A stretch of DNA of 64,000 bases. Source: Acidobacteriota bacterium (lineage in GTDB: Bacteria; Acidobacteriota; UBA6911; RPQK01; JAJDTT01). Positions 35,623-41,053 of this stretch are shown piece after piece. How positions within the stretch are numbered: position 1 is the stretch's first letter; the number at the start of each line of letters is the position of its first letter. The stretch covers positions 992,001-1,056,000 of the forward strand of contig OZ253580.1 of assembly GCA_965263035.1 (NCBI GenBank), in the 5' to 3' direction. The notes beneath the pieces were generated by a model. That model searched no databases. It had not been told where the DNA came from and saw nothing but the letters and a program-made list of their open reading frames with translations. Made by a program: the position numbers and the translations under genes.

Positions 35623-37152
35623 TTGATTGGGATGGGTCAGTACGAGCTTATCAGAACGGCGCACCGCGTATACGGCAAGAGTATCCGTCAGATCCAACGG
35701 GAGACGGGGCATCACCGGGTGACGATTCGCAAGGCGTTGAGGGGATTGGAGCCGAAGTACCGGCGAGTCAAGCCGGTCCCCCATCCGGTGATGGGTCCGG
35801 TGACGGAGACGGTCAAGCGGTGGTTGCAGGAAGATCGGGAGCGGCCGGTCAAGCAGCGGCACACAGCGCGGCGGATCTACACCCGGCTGGTGGAAGAAGA
35901 GGGCTTTCAGGGGAGTGAGACGACGGTGCGGCGCTCTCGTGCGGGAATGGAAAGCGGCCCAGGGCTGGGGGCGGAAGGAGGCGGTGGTGCCGTGGGATCC
36001 GGAGGCCGCCCGCGATGCCGAGGTGGATTGGGGGACGGCCTGGGGGCGGATGGCCGGACAGCGGCGGCGAATCAAGCTCTTCGCGATGCGTTCCCGGTAT
36101 TCGGGCAAGGCGTTCGTCCGAGCCTACCCGTGGGAGCGAGACCGAGATGTTCTTCGATGCCCACATGCAGGCCTTCGAGTACTTCGGAGGCGTCTTTCCG
36201 GAACTGCTCTACGACAACCTGAGCCTGTCGGTTCGGCGGATTCTGCGAGGCAAGCAGCGGACCGAGCAGGAGCGCTTCGTCTGCTTTCGAAGTTACTACA
36301 CGTACCGGGCCCGGTTCTGCACCCCGGGTCAAGGACGGGAGAAGGGGGGGGGAGGGGCTCATCGGCTTTGCCCGCCGGAACTTCTTGGTGCCGGTGCCTG
36401 AAGTGGCCGACTTCCAGGAGCTCAACGAGCAGTTGCTCGGACGCTGTCAGGAGCAGGGCAGCCGAAGGATCCGGGGTCGGGAGGATGCCCGCAGCATCGA
36501 GGAGCGCTTCGAGGCGGAGCGAGCGTCGCTGCTGCCGCTGCCGGAGTCTCCCTTCGAGAACACGAAGGTTCTGCGGGTCCGAGTGGACCGGTACCAGACG
36601 GTGAACGTGGACCGCAATCGCTACTCGGTGCCGGGGGCCTACGTGGGACGGTGGCTCCGGGCCCATGTGGGCTGCGAGAAGGTCGAAGTCTACGCCCAGG
36701 AACGGAAGCTGGTCGAGCACGAGCGGATCTTCGCCAACAGCAAGTGGCAGATCGACCCCCGGCACTACCTGGATCTGATCCAACAACGGGTGGGGGCCTT
36801 CGAGAGGGCCCGGCCGATCCTCCAGTGGCGGGCTCGCTGGCCCCAGAGTTACGAAGTGCTGCTGCAGACCCTGCGCCAGAAACGGGGCGAGAACGCCGGC
36901 ACCCGGGAGTTCGTCCGGATCTTGAAGCTGCACCGAGAGCATGAATCTCCGCTGGTGGAGCGAGCCGTCGCGACAGCGCTCGAGCACCACTGTCCCGGAT
37001 ACGAGTCGATCCGCCACCTGATCGGACTGGAATCGAGCCCGCTGCGGGTGCTGGCGCCGCTGCCCCAGGACCGGATACCCGGGGTGACGGACCAAGCGGT
37101 GAGTCGGACCCGGGTCGAGGCCTTCAACGCCTTGCTGGCGGAGGCGCCATGA
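35623..37152 (+). pseudogene. istA: IS21 transposase IstA (about 3 frameshifts, real or sequencing error)
   Basis: HTARRIYTRL, AEVDWG, YFGGVFPELLYDN and VDRNRYSVP fall in different frames; shifts near 35935, 36140 and 36350. Confidence 0.88.
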
Positions 37153-37511
37153 ACCGGGCCAGTGAGCGCGTCCTGTTGGAGGATTGTCTGAAGCAACTGC
37201 GCCTGCCGGCCATGCTCCGAGAGTATCCGGCCTGTGCCCGCCAAGCGCGAGAATCGGGTCAGAGATACGAGGGCTTCTTGTTGGACCTGCCCCACCGGGA
37301 GTTGGAACAACGTCTGGCCAACCGGCTCAAGCACCGGCTCAAGGAAGCCCGGTTTCCGATGCTGAAGACGTTGGAGAAGACCGATCTCACGCGGTGGCCC
37401 TCGCTGGACGGTAGGGAGATCCGGGAGTTGGCCGCAGGAGACTGGATCAAGCAGCACGAGAATCTCGTCTTGCTGGGCCGTCCCGATCCAGTGACATACT
37501 GCACCACCTTT

Positions 37512-39597
37512 CTACATCGTTGATGTCATGAGACTTAACTGTGACGCGTTGGCACCTCGCGGAACTCTTCTGCCGCTTCGAATGGCCTCGGCGGCTCGTT
37601 GGACTGCTTCAGATCGCAAGTCCGAGTACCGAATCTAACAGGGTGCCATGGCCACCACCTGCCGTGCTGGCAGGAGTTTGCGGCCAACCAGCTTGCGTAC
37701 GGAACTGGGGCTGATGCCCGGTTGCGAAGCCGCTTCTTCCATGTTGCAGAACTCGTGAAGGCGTTGCGAGAAGGCCGGGATGCGCCGATAGTTGCGCAAG
37801 CTGCGAACACGAGTCTCGTTCCAGCTGTGCCCTCGTCCCGTCTTCTTGCCCATTCGGTTCAGGATCCGGGCGATCTGATCGTCACTCACCTGCCGGGCCA
37901 ACTGGCGAACCAACTTCACCACGTCCTCCTCGGTGCAGTAGCGATGGCGACCGGTGGAGTTCTTTCGTACCTGCAGCCGCGTGTGTTTGCCCCCGCGCCA
38001 GCGGATGATCAACTCCACCTGCCGCCTACCCTGATCCCCGCTCGCAATGATCTCTTCAATCAACCTGCGTGCGATCCGCTTCTTGATCCGATTGTCGGTG
38101 ACGGCATCGGACCAGAGCGCTGGAAACTGCTCGGCTAGCCGTAGCAGTTCCACTCGATACGGTCCCAGCGAACTCGACTGTTCCTGCTCGATCTGCTCCA
38201 GCCGGGACTGCACTTGGCGAACTCTCTTCAGGGCTTCGTTCCACTTCCGCTCCAGCGTCGCAGCCACCAGCCGGTTCTCTGGGTCGACCGCATCGTACTG
38301 TCGCTCTCGTCCGTCTTGCCTGGTAGCGCAATTGCTCGAGTTCGCGCTCCAGGAGTTCTCGTTTCAACCGGTCTCGCTCGGAGGCTTCCTCTTCCACTCG
38401 CAGAGCCGCCTCGATCGCTCCTGGGGACACCACTCGCACGATCTCCCGCCCAACGGCCTGGTCGACCTTGCGTCCACCAAACGAGATGCAACCGGCGACT
38501 CCGTGGTTGATCTGCCCCCCTCGACAATGGTAGCGGGGGATCCGTCCCCCAACCCCAGCGTAGGCCACGTGCAGCCGACGACCGCAGTGCCCACACAACA
38601 GCAGGCCCGCCAGCAAACTCTTTCCCGAACGAACGGCTCCCTTCGCCATTTTGCCTCGCATCTGAGCGTTGTCGGCCAAGAGGCGTTGATTCCCTTCAAA
38701 GCGCTTCCAGTCGATGTAGCCTGGGTGATGTTCCTGGAGCCAGACCGTCCACTGTTCCGGGTGGGCCCGGGACCGAATCCGTTTGCGAGCTTGACCGTCC
38801 TTCAAGTAGGTCTCGGTCCAGGTGCGCCCCCAGGCGTAGGCTCCCGTGTACAGGGGGTTCTTCAACAACCTCAACACCGTGCTGTAGACGGGCAGCTTCC
38901 ACACGGTCTCCCAACCCCATGCGCTGTGCCGTTTCACGGGCAACTGGATCCTTTCTTGCCGATACCAGAGCAGGGTCTGACGGGCGCTGCCCGTCTCGGA
39001 GAATTTAGCAAACACTCCCTGAATACTTTCCTGCACCCGGCGGTCCGGATCCTTCTCCAGACGCCCGTTCGGGGTCAGGACGAAACCCACGGGCAAAGAG
39101 GTGTACAGCTCTCCCCGAGCCGCTTTGCTCAGCAGTCCCTGTTGGGCGCGCTGCCGGAGCAGGCTCAGCTCCGCCTCGCTCAGCGTTCCCTTCAACCCGA
39201 GAAGCAGTCGGTCGTTGCTGAGACGCGGATCGTAGACGTCCTCGCTGTCGACGATCAGGGTACGCGTCAGCGAGCACAGGTCCTGCAATCGGTACCCGTC
39301 GGCATTGTTGCGAGCCAGTCGAGAGGCGTCCAGGCTAAAGATGGCTCCACTTCGTCCCAGGCTGACCTCGGTGGTCAAGCGTTGAAAGCCCACCCGATCG
39401 ACCGTGGAGGCGCCCGAGCGCCCCTGATCCTCGTCGATGACCTCGGCTTGGCTCCATCCGAAGTCTTTGGCTTGGCCACCAGCTGGTACTGCACAGTCGG
39501 CGGCCTCCTGGTGGCAACGGACTTGCTGCAGGCTCGACTGGCGCACGTACACGTAGGCTTTGCGTCTCAGATGATCCTCAGTGATCTTCCCTCTCAT
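37512..39597 (-). pseudogene. Large serine recombinase (catalytic, recombinase, Zn-ribbon, coiled-coil and C-terminal HTH-like parts); frameshifts and one in-frame stop
   Basis: AYVYVRQS, DEDQGRSG, DASRLARN, NPLYTGAY, LLAGLLLCGHCG and DPENRLVAATLERKWN. Compensating shifts near 39470-39510, a shift near 38310 and TAG at 37635-37637; the frame continues to TAG 37514-37512. Confidence 0.88.
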
Positions 39598-39736
39598 CGG
39601 CGTCCTCCTTTCGCCCTCGCCAGGCCTGCTCGAGTAGCTGAGCCATCAGACGCAGCAGTTTCTTCCGGGTCGAAGGGGGGAGCTGGTGCCACTCGGGCTG
39701 GTTGGGGGTTGCAAACGCGAGCTCCTTTTGCTTCAT
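39578..39736 (-). CDS. 52-aa small protein directly upstream of the recombinase
   Basis: GGGAGG RBS; MKQKELAFATPNQPEWHQLPPSTRKKLLRLMAQLLEQAWRGRKEDADEREDH; overlaps the recombinase start. Below the ORF-track length cutoff. Confidence 0.6.
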   Translation of the reverse strand: MKQKELAFATPNQPEWHQLPPSTRKKLLRLMAQLLEQAWRGRKEDADEREDH

Positions 39737-40064
39737 GCCGTCCTCCCGGGGGAAGGTTGCCCCGGGCGGTCTGACAATCCGACTTCGACCCGAAGGTCTC
39801 GATCAGGTCCTGGAGTTCTTGCAAGGCGCAGACGCTGCAACGCGGCTGGTCGTCGACCCGACCCACTGCCGCAGCTTCGGGCTGGCAAATCCAGCGTGGG
39901 ATCTTCGCGTGAGTGCCGTCCGGGAGCCGGCAGGTGAACCACTCACCCCACTGTCCGTGACGAGGATGTGCGGCCAGTTCAAGGTCTCGTCCTGCTAAGG
40001 GGTGAATGGGGTAGTGGATTCTAACGGAGGTCCCAATGTGAGCATTGTGTCGTGGGTCCGTCCG
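39594..40064 (-). CDS. ATG-less ORF resembling (from memory) DUF5372/Y4bD-like proteins; start codon lies at the other element end (37497)
   Basis: HNAHIGTSVRIHYPIHPLAG..CRLPDGTHAKIPRW..SVCALQELQDLI; no Met within the element; stop overlaps the recombinase ATG (ATGA). Confidence 0.65.
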   Translation of the reverse strand, partial: RTDPRHNAHIGTSVRIHYPIHPLAGRDLELAAHPRHGQWGEWFTCRLPDGTHAKIPRWICQPEAAAVGRVDDQPRCSVCALQELQDLIETFGSKSDCQTARGNLPPGGRHEAKGARVCNPQPARVAPAPPFDPEETAASDGSATRAGLARAKGGRR

Positions 40065-41053
40065 GCACGGGCAAGACCCATGCGGCGATCGCCCTGGGTG
40101 TGGAGGGCTGCCGTCGCGGTTACCGGGTGTTGTTCTCGACGGCGGCCCAGCTGGTGAACCAACTGGTGGAAGCGCGGGAGGAGCGGACCCTGGAACGACT
40201 GCAGCGGCGCCTCGACCGCTTTTCGCTTCTGATCGTGGACGAGCTCGGCTACATCCCCTTCTCTCAGGAAGGGGCGCAGCTCCTGTTCCAGGTCTTTGCC
40301 AACCGCTACGAGAGGGCTTCGCTGCTGGTGACCTCGAACCTGGCCTTTGCGGAGTGGATCCAGGTGTTCCTGGATGCTCCCCTGACGGCGGCATTGCTGG
40401 ACCGTTTGACGCATCATTGGCACATTCATGAGTTCGACTGGGAGAGTCTCCGCTTGGCCGAGAGCTTGAAACGGCAGCAGAAGAAACGGCGCCCAACCGC
40501 CGGATGGCCGCCGGACCTCCCGGTGACCGTGGGGAAGGAAACCCATCCCGAGGAGGGTCGGTAGTGTCCTCGGGGCTGGCCTCTGTCGGGGAGCCCAGGG
40601 CTCGCTGTTCAAGACCCCCGTCGGGTCCCAGTCGTCGGGATACCAACAGGAAGAATAGAAAATCTCTGGAGTTTTGGACTTATTTTTTTGCCCTGTGGTG
40701 GGTCACTTTTGCGTGATCACGCCGGGTCACTTTTGCATTGACGTTTCCAGTAGATAGACTGTCTAGTTACAGATTAGTCTTTCAGGAGTAGGACTTGCTT
40801 GCCTTGGACCTGCAGAATTCGTGTGATTCAGACTCTTACTTCCGCGGAAGGCACTCTGGATGATATCTTGGGAATTATCCGCTGGTATTGGGGCCATTTT
40901 CTCTGCTGGATGAATCCTGTACACCAACCTGCCGGAGAAGCTCCACGTCGCTGAGTCCGCTAGAACGGTCCCAGAGTGACGTCCGGTCACGAGTAGGAGC
41001 TGCTGGAAGTCACATGATGTTGGAAAGGCGTCGTCGTCGAGTCGTGCGCCTGC

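What the first reader, a model, noticed from the sequence alone, without database searches (positions are those of the whole stretch)
37483..40064. Excision-assembled gene: the start codon and RBS sit at one end of the element, the ORF body at the other
Seen: on the minus strand the recombinase frame ends at TAG 37514-37512. It is followed by AAAGGTGGTGCAGT-ATG TCA CTG GAT CGG (ATG at 37497), which when integrated runs out into a 16-aa peptide. The far end carries a 156-codon frame with no Met (RTDPRHNAHIGTSVRIHYPIHPLAG...). Joining the ends at the shared CCG, the same register that restores istB, gives an in-frame 160-aa protein MSLDRTDPRHNAHIG... Two independent frames being restored by one crossover supports the register. 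Inference: the DUF5372/Y4bD-like gene spans attP and is translated only from the excised circle, a recombination-state switch (directionality, re-integration, targeting or circle-maintenance factor). I know of no description of this for such minimal elements, but cannot search the literature.
Basis: partly seen in the sequence, partly recalled or inferred. Interest (0 to 1): 0.85.

Follow-up and report, generated by a model that had tools for sequence, protein, structure and literature searches.

The report
Gene completed only on excised circle
A small mobile element carries a helper gene whose start signal sits at one end and whose body sits at the other, so the gene is whole only when the element has cut itself out as a circle, and the same layout recurs in distant bacteria.

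Summary
Window 37483-40064 is a 2.58 kb element on the minus strand, inserted in the Walker A codons of an IS21 istB. It carries a DUF5372-like ORF and a large serine recombinase (LSR). The ORF body has no start codon. A ribosome-binding-like run and an ATG lie 14 nt after the LSR stop, at the other end.

Joining the ends in the register that restores istB gives an in-frame 160-codon ORF. A database protein, P0001, is exactly this junction-spanning product of the two intact sister copies.

The layout held in 16 of 16 elements that I could delimit. They form 13 lineages from this phylum, Alpha- and Betaproteobacteria and Actinomycetota. About 6.3 of 16 would be expected by chance. Flanking target genes were restored only in the same register.

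The ORF's stop overlaps the next gene's start in 16 of 22 loci. A complex model places the protein on the LSR zinc-ribbon and coiled-coil base (0.67; best control 0.01).

No circle, transcript or protein was observed. The window copy's LSR is a pseudogene. I found no description in print.

The parts
37483..40062 (-). Whole element (about 2.58 kb), bounded by the two copies of the crossover dinucleotide (37482-37483 and 40061-40062). This is copy c1 of four in the genome.
   Evidence: four copies, 93-100% identity; flanks differ and ends are shared; register.
37502..37510 (-). Purine-rich Shine-Dalgarno-like run just after the recombinase stop. It is part of a far-end motif (GGTG..GCAGT then ATG) that recurs in distant relatives.
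   Evidence: column up16.
37483..37497 (-). Start codon (ATG 37497-37495) and the first five codons (MSLDR) of the split gene, at the recombinase-distal end. When integrated it opens only a 16-codon peptide that runs into istB antisense.
39594..40062 (-). Body of the split gene: a DUF5372-like ORF of 156 codons without a start codon, stop TGA 39596-39594. When integrated it is open upstream into istB antisense.
39594..39597 (-). ATGA overlap: the stop of the DUF5372-like ORF overlaps the ATG of the recombinase, with GGAGG 7 nt upstream. This arrangement suggests translational coupling.
   Evidence: 16 of 22 loci have such an overlap.
37512..39597 (-). Large serine recombinase gene, a pseudogene in this copy. 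It has local -1/+2/-1 indels at 39504-39473, a +1 frameshift near 38307, and CAG>TAG at codon 654 (37637-37635). Copies c2 and c3 encode an intact 694-residue protein.
37149..37482 (+). 5' part of the interrupted IS21-type istB, ending inside the Walker A codons (..LLGR).
   Evidence: (IstB_IS21, profile positions 3-101).
40063..40564 (+). 3' part of the interrupted istB (..GTGKTH onward).
   Evidence: (IstB_IS21, profile positions 98-236, E 7.7e-50).

Best explanation
SHOWN FROM SEQUENCE
The element is a minimal mobile element driven by a large serine recombinase (LSR). Its genes are laid out as a ring that integration cuts open.
- The crossover site (attP) lies inside the first codons of a DUF5372-type gene.
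- After integration, the ribosome-binding-like run, the ATG and 3-15 codons stay behind the recombinase stop at one end.
- The rest of the ORF, which has no start codon, lies at the other end.
- Only the joined ends give a complete gene. The joined form could be an excised circle or a head-to-tail junction.
- The stop of this ORF overlaps the start of the next gene, usually the LSR itself.
- The far-end ATG lies from 4 nt before to 66 nt after the end of the LSR stop codon. On the circle the two genes therefore follow each other without a free end.
- The layout is a family trait of DUF5372-LSR elements in at least three phyla. It is not an accident of this copy.

INFERRED
- The protein is made only, or mainly, from the excised form.
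- It binds the LSR at the zinc-ribbon and coiled-coil base, the region where phage directionality factors act.
- It thereby biases a non-replicating circle towards re-integration. Its translation may also raise LSR translation through the overlap.
- After integration the gene is broken again and the system falls silent.

MY ODDS
- Gene split across attP by design: about 0.85.
- Translated essentially only from the joined form: about 0.7.
- Acts on the LSR as a state-specific directionality or integration cofactor: about 0.4.

The window copy itself is no longer autonomous, because its LSR is a pseudogene.
For: (1) Anatomy in the window.

(2) Register, fixed without using the frame. Mismatches in the flanks of copy c3 confine the crossover to CC. 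Empty-site contigs in two runs join the flanks at L002 1500>4079 and 1501>4081.

(3) P0001 is a 160-residue protein in the 5.8-billion-protein collection, recorded on one contig of 95,240 bases. It consists of the five far-end codons followed by the ORF body of copies c2/c3, at 100% identity.

(4) Comparative test. I could delimit both ends of 16 elements in 13 lineages. They are the four close copies, eight more distant lineages of the same phylum, Sinorhizobium fredii NGR234 pNGR234a, a Caballeronia plasmid, a Rhodococcus plasmid and a Streptomyces plasmid. In 16 of 16, an ATG open through the crossover lies in the ORF's frame. 6.33 would be expected if the frame were random.

(5) The same register restores a continuous flanking target ORF in 13 of the 14 elements tested. 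Shifts of +1 or -1 break it. The 14th has too short a flank to test.

(6) Start codons are missing inside the element in 12 of 15 elements scored. The window copy has none when read by eye.

(7) A 4-nt overlap (ATGA or GTGA) joins the ORF's stop to the next gene's start in 16 of 22 loci.

(8) Predicted proteins of the family have very uneven N-termini. The motif begins anywhere from residue 4 to residue 139. This is as expected if gene callers improvise starts in the flanks. In the 25 listed plasmid rows the match was annotated as DUF5372 in 9, carried no listed feature in 12, and lay in unannotated records in 4. PLSDB's gene table is incomplete.

(9) The element moved recently: c2 and c3 differ by 1 mismatch yet sit in different genes.

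(10) Complex model of LSR plus the DUF5372-type protein. Score 0.67 (runs 0.67, 0.68, 0.66); best of 3 controls 0.01. The mark was reached by 58 of 80 solved complexes and by 2 of 110 mismatched pairs. These counts hold only roughly, because my own alignments were used. The runs agree in at least 46% of contacts, and the partner's pLDDT is at least 53. The interface covers LSR residues 334-402 and 480-540, which are the zinc ribbon (Pfam 328-382) and the stretches flanking the coiled coil. The model supports binding; it does not show it.

(11) From a title in a search listing: phage phiC31 RDF gp3 binds its integrase via the zinc domain (PMC5814800).
Against: No circle junction, transcript or peptide was observed.

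I could not see the contig or source of P0001. A head-to-tail tandem or an assembly path through a repeat would give the same protein.

I placed the crossovers by eye while knowing the frames. The independent check, target restoration, is missing for one lineage (L060).

In one lineage (L057) the ATG nearest the purine run is destroyed by joining, and an upstream ATG with a weak purine run must serve. In L015 all three frames carry an open ATG, so that case is uninformative.

Three of 16 elements have an in-frame GTG at a conserved Val just before the motif. NGR234 y4bD is annotated from such a GTG. A shorter protein could therefore be made while integrated in those lineages.

Conservation of the far-end motif could reflect recombinase binding to the attP arm rather than translation signals.

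No sigma-70-like promoter was found at the far end, so the source of transcription is unknown.

Under the phage paradigm, a protein at the RDF site promotes excision. Making it only after excision looks paradoxical unless these LSRs are bidirectional on their own. A review says this of the Tn4451 recombinase (PMC5704250, passages).

The window protein is below Pfam's threshold for DUF5372.
Confidence: 0.75

Rival explanations
1. The ORF has its own start inside the element: a non-canonical codon such as ATT or ATC, or GTG at the conserved Val. On this view it is made in the integrated state. The far-end ATG and purine run are part of the recombinase's attP binding arm, and the shared frame is a by-product.
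For: In-frame ATT, ATC, ATA or CTG codons exist before the motif in 10 of the 15 elements scored. GTG exists there in 3 of 15. NGR234 y4bD is annotated from a GTG. The residues predicted to touch the LSR start at residue 24, so the N-terminal peptide is not needed for the modelled interface. LSR attP sites are about 50 bp (PMC11722253, introductory text shown in the outline), so the far-end motif lies within reach of the recombinase.
Against: It does not explain 16 of 16 open in-frame ATGs against 6.33 expected. No purine-rich run precedes the internal ATT or ATC in the window copy. A conserved H..H / H.AH stretch lies upstream of those codons in many family members, which suggests that it is translated. 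Two elements, Caballeronia and G038 (L015), have neither a canonical nor a listed near-cognate codon there.
Confidence: 0.08
2. The protein is a classical recombination directionality factor that promotes excision. In the integrated state it is made at a low level by read-through from the flank, or from chance in-frame starts there. The intact junction gene only serves to keep circles from re-integrating for a while.
For: The predicted contact is at the zinc ribbon and coiled-coil base. That is where phiC31 gp3 is reported to bind (PMC5814800, title in listing). In some insertions the flank offers in-frame starts: L017 has an ATG, and the window copy's frame is open for 350 codons from a TTG.
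Against: Flank-encoded starts are not conserved. Copies c2 and c3 have an in-frame stop 8-11 codons upstream of the element and no start between. A non-replicating circle that blocks its own re-integration would be lost. The conserved far-end ATG would have no purpose.
Confidence: 0.08
3. The junction ORF matters only as a leader. Its translation from the joined form drives LSR synthesis through the ATGA overlap, and the DUF5372-type protein has no activity of its own on recombination.
For: The 4-nt overlap is present in 16 of 22 loci. The far-end ATG lies very close to the LSR stop.
Against: The domain is conserved across phyla: 5439 cluster representatives at E <= 0.001 and 1530 at E <= 1e-10. 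It has a confident fold, mean pLDDT 84. The complex model passes its controls. The LSR has its own GGAGG 7 nt before its ATG. In 6 of 22 loci there is no overlap.
Confidence: 0.07

Closest known systems
SSV-type ('suicidal') tyrosine integrases of archaeal viruses and plasmids (SSV1, pTN3, pT26-2)
   Same: The recombination site lies inside a gene of the element. Integration therefore fragments the gene, and only the circular form carries it whole. This acts as a built-in control of directionality (PMC8371274, passages read).
   Different: There the split gene is the recombinase itself, a tyrosine enzyme. The review says such recombinases are found exclusively in archaea. Here the recombinase stays whole, is a serine enzyme, and the host is bacterial. 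What is split is an accessory gene, and only its translation start plus 3-15 codons are separated.
State-dependent promoters of integrative elements (ICEKp1, ICEclc, ICEEc1)
   Same: A signal at the far end of the element drives a gene at the near end only after the ends are joined. This biases the element towards integration (PMC13023037, abstract read).
   Different: Those cases separate a promoter from an intact integrase gene. Here the coding sequence itself is cut, so the integrated copy lacks a start codon. No promoter was identified here.
Tn4451/Tn4453 and their large serine recombinase TnpX
   Same: Small LSR-driven elements that excise as circles and recombine at a 2-bp core. According to a review, the recombinase catalyses integration and excision without an RDF (PMC5704250, passages read). 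From recall only, not from any call: the Tn4451 circle joint is reported to create a promoter for tnpX.
   Different: Tn4451 carries cargo and mobilisation genes, and no DUF5372-type gene is known to me there. I did not test whether the LSR here is bidirectional.
Recombination directionality factors of phage serine integrases (phiC31 gp3, SPbeta RDF)
   Same: A small partner protein predicted to sit on the zinc-ribbon and coiled-coil region of the LSR. This matches the title of PMC5814800 (listing). RDFs share no common fold (PMC11795197, start of abstract in the listing).
   Different: RDFs are made when excision is wanted and favour excision. This protein can only be made in full after excision. 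Its fold is an SH3/Tudor/KOW-like barrel followed by helices, with no solved match at E <= 0.001.
Y4bD / DUF5372 (PF17342) of rhizobial plasmids
   Same: Same family by profile: 12 of 16 aligned relatives match PF17342. The NGR234 y4bD-y4bA element shows the same split across its ends.
   Different: The rhizobial type has two extra genes between the DUF5372 gene and the LSR. The window type has two genes, a longer tail, and scores below Pfam's cut-off.

Membership tests
DUF5372 (Pfam PF17342) | Match to the Pfam profile at or above the gathering score (25 bits) | tested here: not met
   The window ORF matched 0 families at E <= 0.01. Sister copy c2 scored 16.2 bits, E 0.011; its first 105 residues scored 17.5 bits, E 0.0043.
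DUF5372 (Pfam PF17342) | Homology through intermediates, and the shared HP.HP..G barrel motif | tested here: met
   12 of 16 members of alignment A2 match PF17342, best E 1.5e-24. H, P and G of the motif are invariant in A2. A profile of the window type finds the canonical type in 20 of 401 sampled genomes of the phylum.
Large serine recombinase | Resolvase catalytic domain, then Recombinase domain, then zinc beta-ribbon | tested here: met
   c2: PF00239 E 4.7e-19, PF07508 E 2.3e-17, PF13408 E 9.5e-9. The N-terminal fragment of the window copy has the same three domains, but the gene is broken.
Large serine recombinase element | Conservative crossover at a 2-bp core, with no target duplication | tested here: met
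   Mismatches in the c3 flanks confine the exchange to one CC. Empty-site contigs join the flanks with 2-6 shared letters.
Large serine recombinase element | Excised circular intermediate | tested here: inconclusive
   The only trace is P0001, a database protein that spans the joined ends.
SSV-type suicidal integrase | attP lies within the recombinase's own gene | tested here: not met
   The recombinase ORF is entire within the element in c2 and c3. The crossover lies in the neighbouring ORF.
Recombination directionality factor | Binds the cognate LSR | tested here: inconclusive
   Model only: score 0.67 against a best control of 0.01. There is no measurement.
Recombination directionality factor | Switches the LSR from integration to excision | not testable with these tools
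   This needs recombination assays.
IS21 (host of the window copy) | IstB-type ATPase next to istA | tested here: met
   PF01695 matches both halves. The istA-like frames upstream were seen only as ORFs.

The most novel reading that the evidence does not exclude
DUF5372 proteins may be the mirror image of phage RDFs. On this reading they are cofactors that exist only while the element is a circle, because their gene is assembled by excision. They would dock on the LSR zinc-ribbon and coiled-coil base and lock an otherwise bidirectional recombinase into integration. The circle would be a closed, translationally linked ring of genes (LSR stop next to the DUF5372 start, and DUF5372 stop overlapping the LSR start). 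The elements would be hyperparasites that home into conserved motifs of other mobile elements' genes: IstB Walker A, IstA, IS91-type HUH and zinc finger, integrase-core transposases, a tyrosine recombinase box, and a reverse transcriptase motif.
Probability: 0.35. Interest if true: 0.92.

Novelty: new variant of a known kind. Interest (0 to 1): 0.85.

Why it matters
First, it gives an uncharacterised family a concrete and testable role. The family is widespread: 5439 cluster representatives at E <= 0.001. No paper in the searched library mentions it.

Second, it would be a bacterial, serine-recombinase counterpart of the archaeal split-integrase logic, which a 2021 review calls exclusive to archaea. 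Here the logic is applied to a cofactor, not to the enzyme.

Third, if the protein sets LSR directionality from the circle state, it is a new kind of directionality control. LSRs are widely used as genome-engineering tools.

Fourth, it explains why annotation of these genes is erratic, with starts improvised or genes missed. It suggests that element ends should be joined in silico before genes are called.

Fifth, the targets show a guild of elements that insert into conserved motifs of other mobile elements' genes.

Tried and rejected
READ MINING FOR THE CIRCLE JUNCTION
I laid Logan contigs of four runs (X1, X5, X6, and X15, which is an RNA library) on copy c2 with 1.5 kb flanks. No 'go back' joint was listed; only the two empty-site joints appeared. 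Contigs drop rare variants, so this says nothing about circles. RNA contigs covered parts of the element at 90-95% likeness. I draw no conclusion on expression.

EXACT SEARCH FOR THE JOINED ENDS
A 36-letter degenerate pattern gave 0 stretches in each of genome contigs, metagenome contigs and viral contigs.

SOURCE OF P0001
The contig that carries P0001 was therefore not seen.

UNINTERRUPTED PARALOGUES OF THE TARGETS IN THE OWN GENOME
blastn of the flanks found no adjacent pair.

PROMOTER SCAN
No sigma-70-like promoter or terminator was found at the far end of c2.

FOLD SEARCH
There was no PDB match at E <= 0.001. The best rows are SH3, Tudor and KOW-like barrels at E about 0.1. I take only the fold class from this.

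WIDER LOCUS FETCH
The search for related loci with alignment A2 failed because no conserved 7-10 column stretch exists. I used tblastn against plasmids instead.

THE 52-CODON 'MKQKE' FRAME (39736-39578)
It overlaps the tail of the ORF. I rejected it as a gene because the long frame ends exactly in the ATGA overlap in most lineages. Its only Pfam row is a chance-level hit, E 0.028.

ROWS LEFT OUT OF THE 16-ELEMENT COUNT
- L016 and L018: same lineage and same ends as L015.
- L046 and L048: the LSR is interrupted by another insertion, and the far end was not found.
- L052, L058 and L034: the contig ends before the far end.
- L061: an ATG lies 1 nt after the LSR stop, with GGAGGTG before it, but the contig ends 14 nt later.
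- L054: no far end was recognised.
- L055, L053 and L059: remnants or truncated ORFs.
- L050: decayed, with stops inside.
- The second hit in L049 (7215-7763) has an ATG five codons before the motif and was not delimited. It may be a member with its own start.

SCRIPT SLIPS
Searches stopped on a bad pattern; they were redone. One search picked wrong ATGs for six elements and printed a wrong tally; it was redone, which is the one to cite. mis-framed the window copy, so its '12 of 16' means 12 of 15 evaluated. One search chose the wrong frame for five flanks. Only seven were sent to Pfam: five gave a match above the Pfam cut-off, one (c3, AAA_19) a match below it, and L063 none.

TOOLS AND FILES NOT AVAILABLE
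Supplementary files of papers were not consulted. None of my claims depends on them, but supplements of large LSR surveys (for example bioRxiv 10.1101/2021.11.05.467528, seen only in a listing) might list such elements or their targets.

NOT-IN-PRINT CLAIM
It rests on these searches only: 'DUF5372' gave 0 papers. 'serine recombinase + circular intermediate + start codon + attP' gave 1 unrelated paper. 'serine recombinase, insertion sequence, Walker A, target site, istB' gave 6 unrelated papers.


Full report
WHAT IS IN THE WINDOW

On the minus strand between 40064 and 37483 lies a compact two-gene unit. It opens with a 156-codon frame that has no Met and whose stop is TGA 39596-39594. That stop overlaps the ATG (39597) of a large serine recombinase (LSR) gene. 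The LSR frame, once its lesions are read through, ends at TAG 37514-37512.

Fourteen bases further on come a purine-rich run and an ATG (37497). In the integrated state this ATG opens only 16 codons.

The unit interrupts an IS21-type istB. Pfam places the left half at profile positions 3-101 and the right half at 98-236. The break falls in the Walker A codons.

The window copy is decayed. Compared with its sisters, the LSR has a short out-of-frame patch (39504-39473), a +1 frameshift near 38307, and a CAG>TAG change at codon 654.

THE ELEMENT IS MOBILE AND ITS ENDS ARE KNOWN

The genome holds four copies. They are the window copy c1; c2 and c3, each 93% identical to c1; and a copy c4 truncated at the far end.

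Copies c2 and c3 differ from each other by one mismatch. Each encodes an intact 694-residue LSR with Resolvase, Recombinase and zinc-ribbon domains.

All four sit in Walker A coding DNA of different genes: three IstB-like genes and one helicase-like P-loop gene. The latter gives only a weak AAA_19 match.

In c3 the flanks differ from the element ends on both sides of a single CC. This confines the exchange to that dinucleotide.

For c2, contigs of two public runs join the flanks directly, with 6 and 2 ambiguous letters. This is the empty site, and it reads FLGPPGVGKT.

THE JOINED ENDS MAKE A GENE

In that register the far-end ATG and five codons run in frame into the start-less ORF.

The protein collection holds P0001, a 160-residue protein on one 95,240-base contig. 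It is exactly this product for c2/c3. It may be a circle-derived path, a tandem or an assembly loop. In each case the joint was present in someone's reads or assembly.

IS IT A FAMILY TRAIT?

The ORF is a divergent DUF5372. It scores below Pfam's threshold on its own. It is nevertheless linked to the family through relatives: 12 of 16 aligned relatives match PF17342.

Six-frame searches found relatives in 7 of 76 genomes of the order (G000 itself among them) and in 20 of 401 sampled genomes of the phylum. tblastn found 141 plasmid records, mostly from rhizobia, with some from Burkholderiales and Actinomycetota.

Read from stop to stop, most of these ORFs show no ATG, GTG or TTG before the conserved HP.HP motif. 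Between crossover and motif, 12 of 15 scored elements have none. The exceptions have GTG at a conserved Val.

I delimited both ends of 16 elements in 13 lineages. I did this by eye, from shared cores and from the target genes. All 16 have an ATG at the far end that is open through the crossover in the ORF's frame. 6.33 would be expected if the frame were random. The product of the per-lineage chances is about 4e-6. That figure is my own arithmetic from the table, counting the four close copies once.

The same register, and not +1 or -1, restores a continuous target ORF in 13 of the 14 elements tested. One element (L060) has too short a flank to test.

The far-end ATG lies from 4 nt before to 66 nt after the end of the LSR stop codon. 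It overlaps the stop in NGR234, Caballeronia and Streptomyces.

A motif, GGTGCAGTATG or a near variant, recurs at the far end from the window's phylum to Rhodococcus and Caballeronia.

At the other junction of the ring, the ORF's stop overlaps the next gene's start by 4 nt in 16 of 22 loci.

The rows I left out of these counts are listed under Tried and rejected.

WEAK POINTS OF THE COMPARATIVE TEST

I chose the crossovers knowing the frames. In L057 the ATG next to the purine run is destroyed by joining, and an upstream ATG must serve. In L015 all three frames carry an open ATG, so that case is uninformative.

The second hit in L049 has an ATG five codons before the motif and was not analysed. 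NGR234 y4bD is annotated from an internal GTG.

WHAT THE PROTEIN MAY DO

The AlphaFold model has mean pLDDT 84 from an alignment of 16 rows. It shows a small beta barrel of the SH3/Tudor/KOW kind followed by helices. It has no solved match at E <= 0.001.

A complex model of the c2 LSR with P0001, both given as alignments, passes its controls. The score is 0.67 in three runs (0.67, 0.68, 0.66), and the best of 3 controls is 0.01. The mark was reached by 58 of 80 solved complexes and by 2 of 110 mismatched pairs. These counts hold only roughly, because my own alignments were used. The runs agree in at least 46% of contacts, and the partner's pLDDT is 53-54.

The contacts are the HP.HP loop and the helix 71-95 of the small protein. 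On the LSR they are residues 334-402 and 480-540. These are the zinc ribbon and the two stretches that flank the coiled coil.

That is the region named in the title of the phiC31 gp3 paper (PMC5814800, listing only). It is also the subdomain whose repositioning sets direction in SPbeta integrase (PMC11722253, abstract read). The model supports binding; it does not show it.

MECHANISM I THINK MOST LIKELY

Integration cuts the cofactor gene off from its start, so the integrated element makes no full-length cofactor. Occasional LSR activity excises the element.

The joint then rebuilds the gene. Ribosomes that finish the LSR, or that load at the purine run, translate it. The ATGA overlap feeds them back into the LSR gene.

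The cofactor docks on the LSR and favours capture of a new target by the non-replicating circle. Integration breaks the gene again.

Shown: the anatomy, its conservation, the register, and the recent mobility of c2 and c3. Inferred: the circle, translation from it, the binding, and the direction of the effect.

The logic matches known state-dependent controls. These are far-end promoters that drive int only after excision in ICEKp1, ICEclc and ICEEc1 (PMC13023037, abstract), and archaeal integrase genes that are split by integration (PMC8371274, passages).

The model needs the LSR alone to be able to excise. A review states this for the Tn4451 recombinase (PMC5704250, passages). A discussion passage suggests that ancestral LSRs may have been bidirectional (PMC11795197, one passage).

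NOVELTY

'DUF5372' occurs in no paper of the searched library. Two further searches found nothing on split starts across attP in serine-recombinase elements, or on such elements targeting IS genes.

A gene that spans attP is a known idea in archaea. [quoted passage not shown] A bacterial LSR cofactor whose start codon is parted from its body is, as far as these searches reach, undescribed. I rate it a new variant of a known kind, of high interest.

VERDICT

Observation confirmed. Interpretation supported and extended to a family-wide design. Function is inferred at moderate confidence. Direct proof (joint, translation, activity) is still missing, and the window copy itself is a dead member.

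Noticed in passing
window 37149-37482 and 40063-40564; L002, L003, L015, L017, L047, L049, L051, L056, L057, L062-L065 flanks: Nearly every delimited element sits inside a conserved motif of another mobile element's gene. The targets seen are IstB Walker A, IstA, IS91-type Y2 transposase (HUH region and C-terminal CxxC), integrase-core transposases, a tyrosine recombinase HxLRH box and a reverse transcriptase motif. Most insertions are antisense to the target. One copy (c3) is in a helicase-like P-loop gene. Pfam confirmed Y2_Tnp (twice), RVT_1, Mu-transpos_C_2 and IstB_IS21 for five target halves. Of the other two sent, c3 gave only a weak AAA_19 match and L063 gave none. The remaining targets are named from motifs I recognised, not from a search.
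   Followed up: partly
window 35623-37152 (+): The istA-like gene of the host IS21 appears as three overlapping frames (35623-36222, 35915-36604, 36385-37152). The host IS may therefore be decayed as well.
   Followed up: no
G000:C1:5830940-5832870 (L004): Copy c4 lacks the last ~650 bases (the far end, with the LSR C-terminus and the ATG). It abuts unrelated AT-richer sequence.
   Followed up: no
window 39578-39736 (-): A 52-codon ATG frame (MKQKE...) overlaps the low-complexity tail of the DUF5372-like ORF in another frame and is kept in the sister copies. I judged it not to be a gene, but an overlapping gene is not excluded.
   Followed up: partly
L002 1500-4081: A contig from an RNA library (X15) and one from another run (X6) carry the unoccupied target site of copy c2. 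Related populations without this insertion therefore exist.
   Followed up: no
L047 1758-2726; L062 7452-8187: The canonical DUF5372 type carries one or two extra genes between the DUF5372 gene and the LSR. One form has a 323-residue ORF whose start overlaps the DUF5372 stop. In NGR234 there is an HTH protein and a small 'transposase'. Their role is unknown.
   Followed up: no
proteins P0062, P0068, P0072, P0098, P0008: Several family representatives that are under 50% identical to each other share a short N-terminus of the form M-(I/F/S)-C-(R/Q) about 10 residues before a conserved H.AH stretch. This may be another conserved far-end-encoded start or a conserved target flank.
   Followed up: no
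L049 1438-2021: In G066 the DUF5372-type ORF stops early (TAG), and a second frame carries on to the LSR start. This suggests a frameshift in that copy.
   Followed up: no
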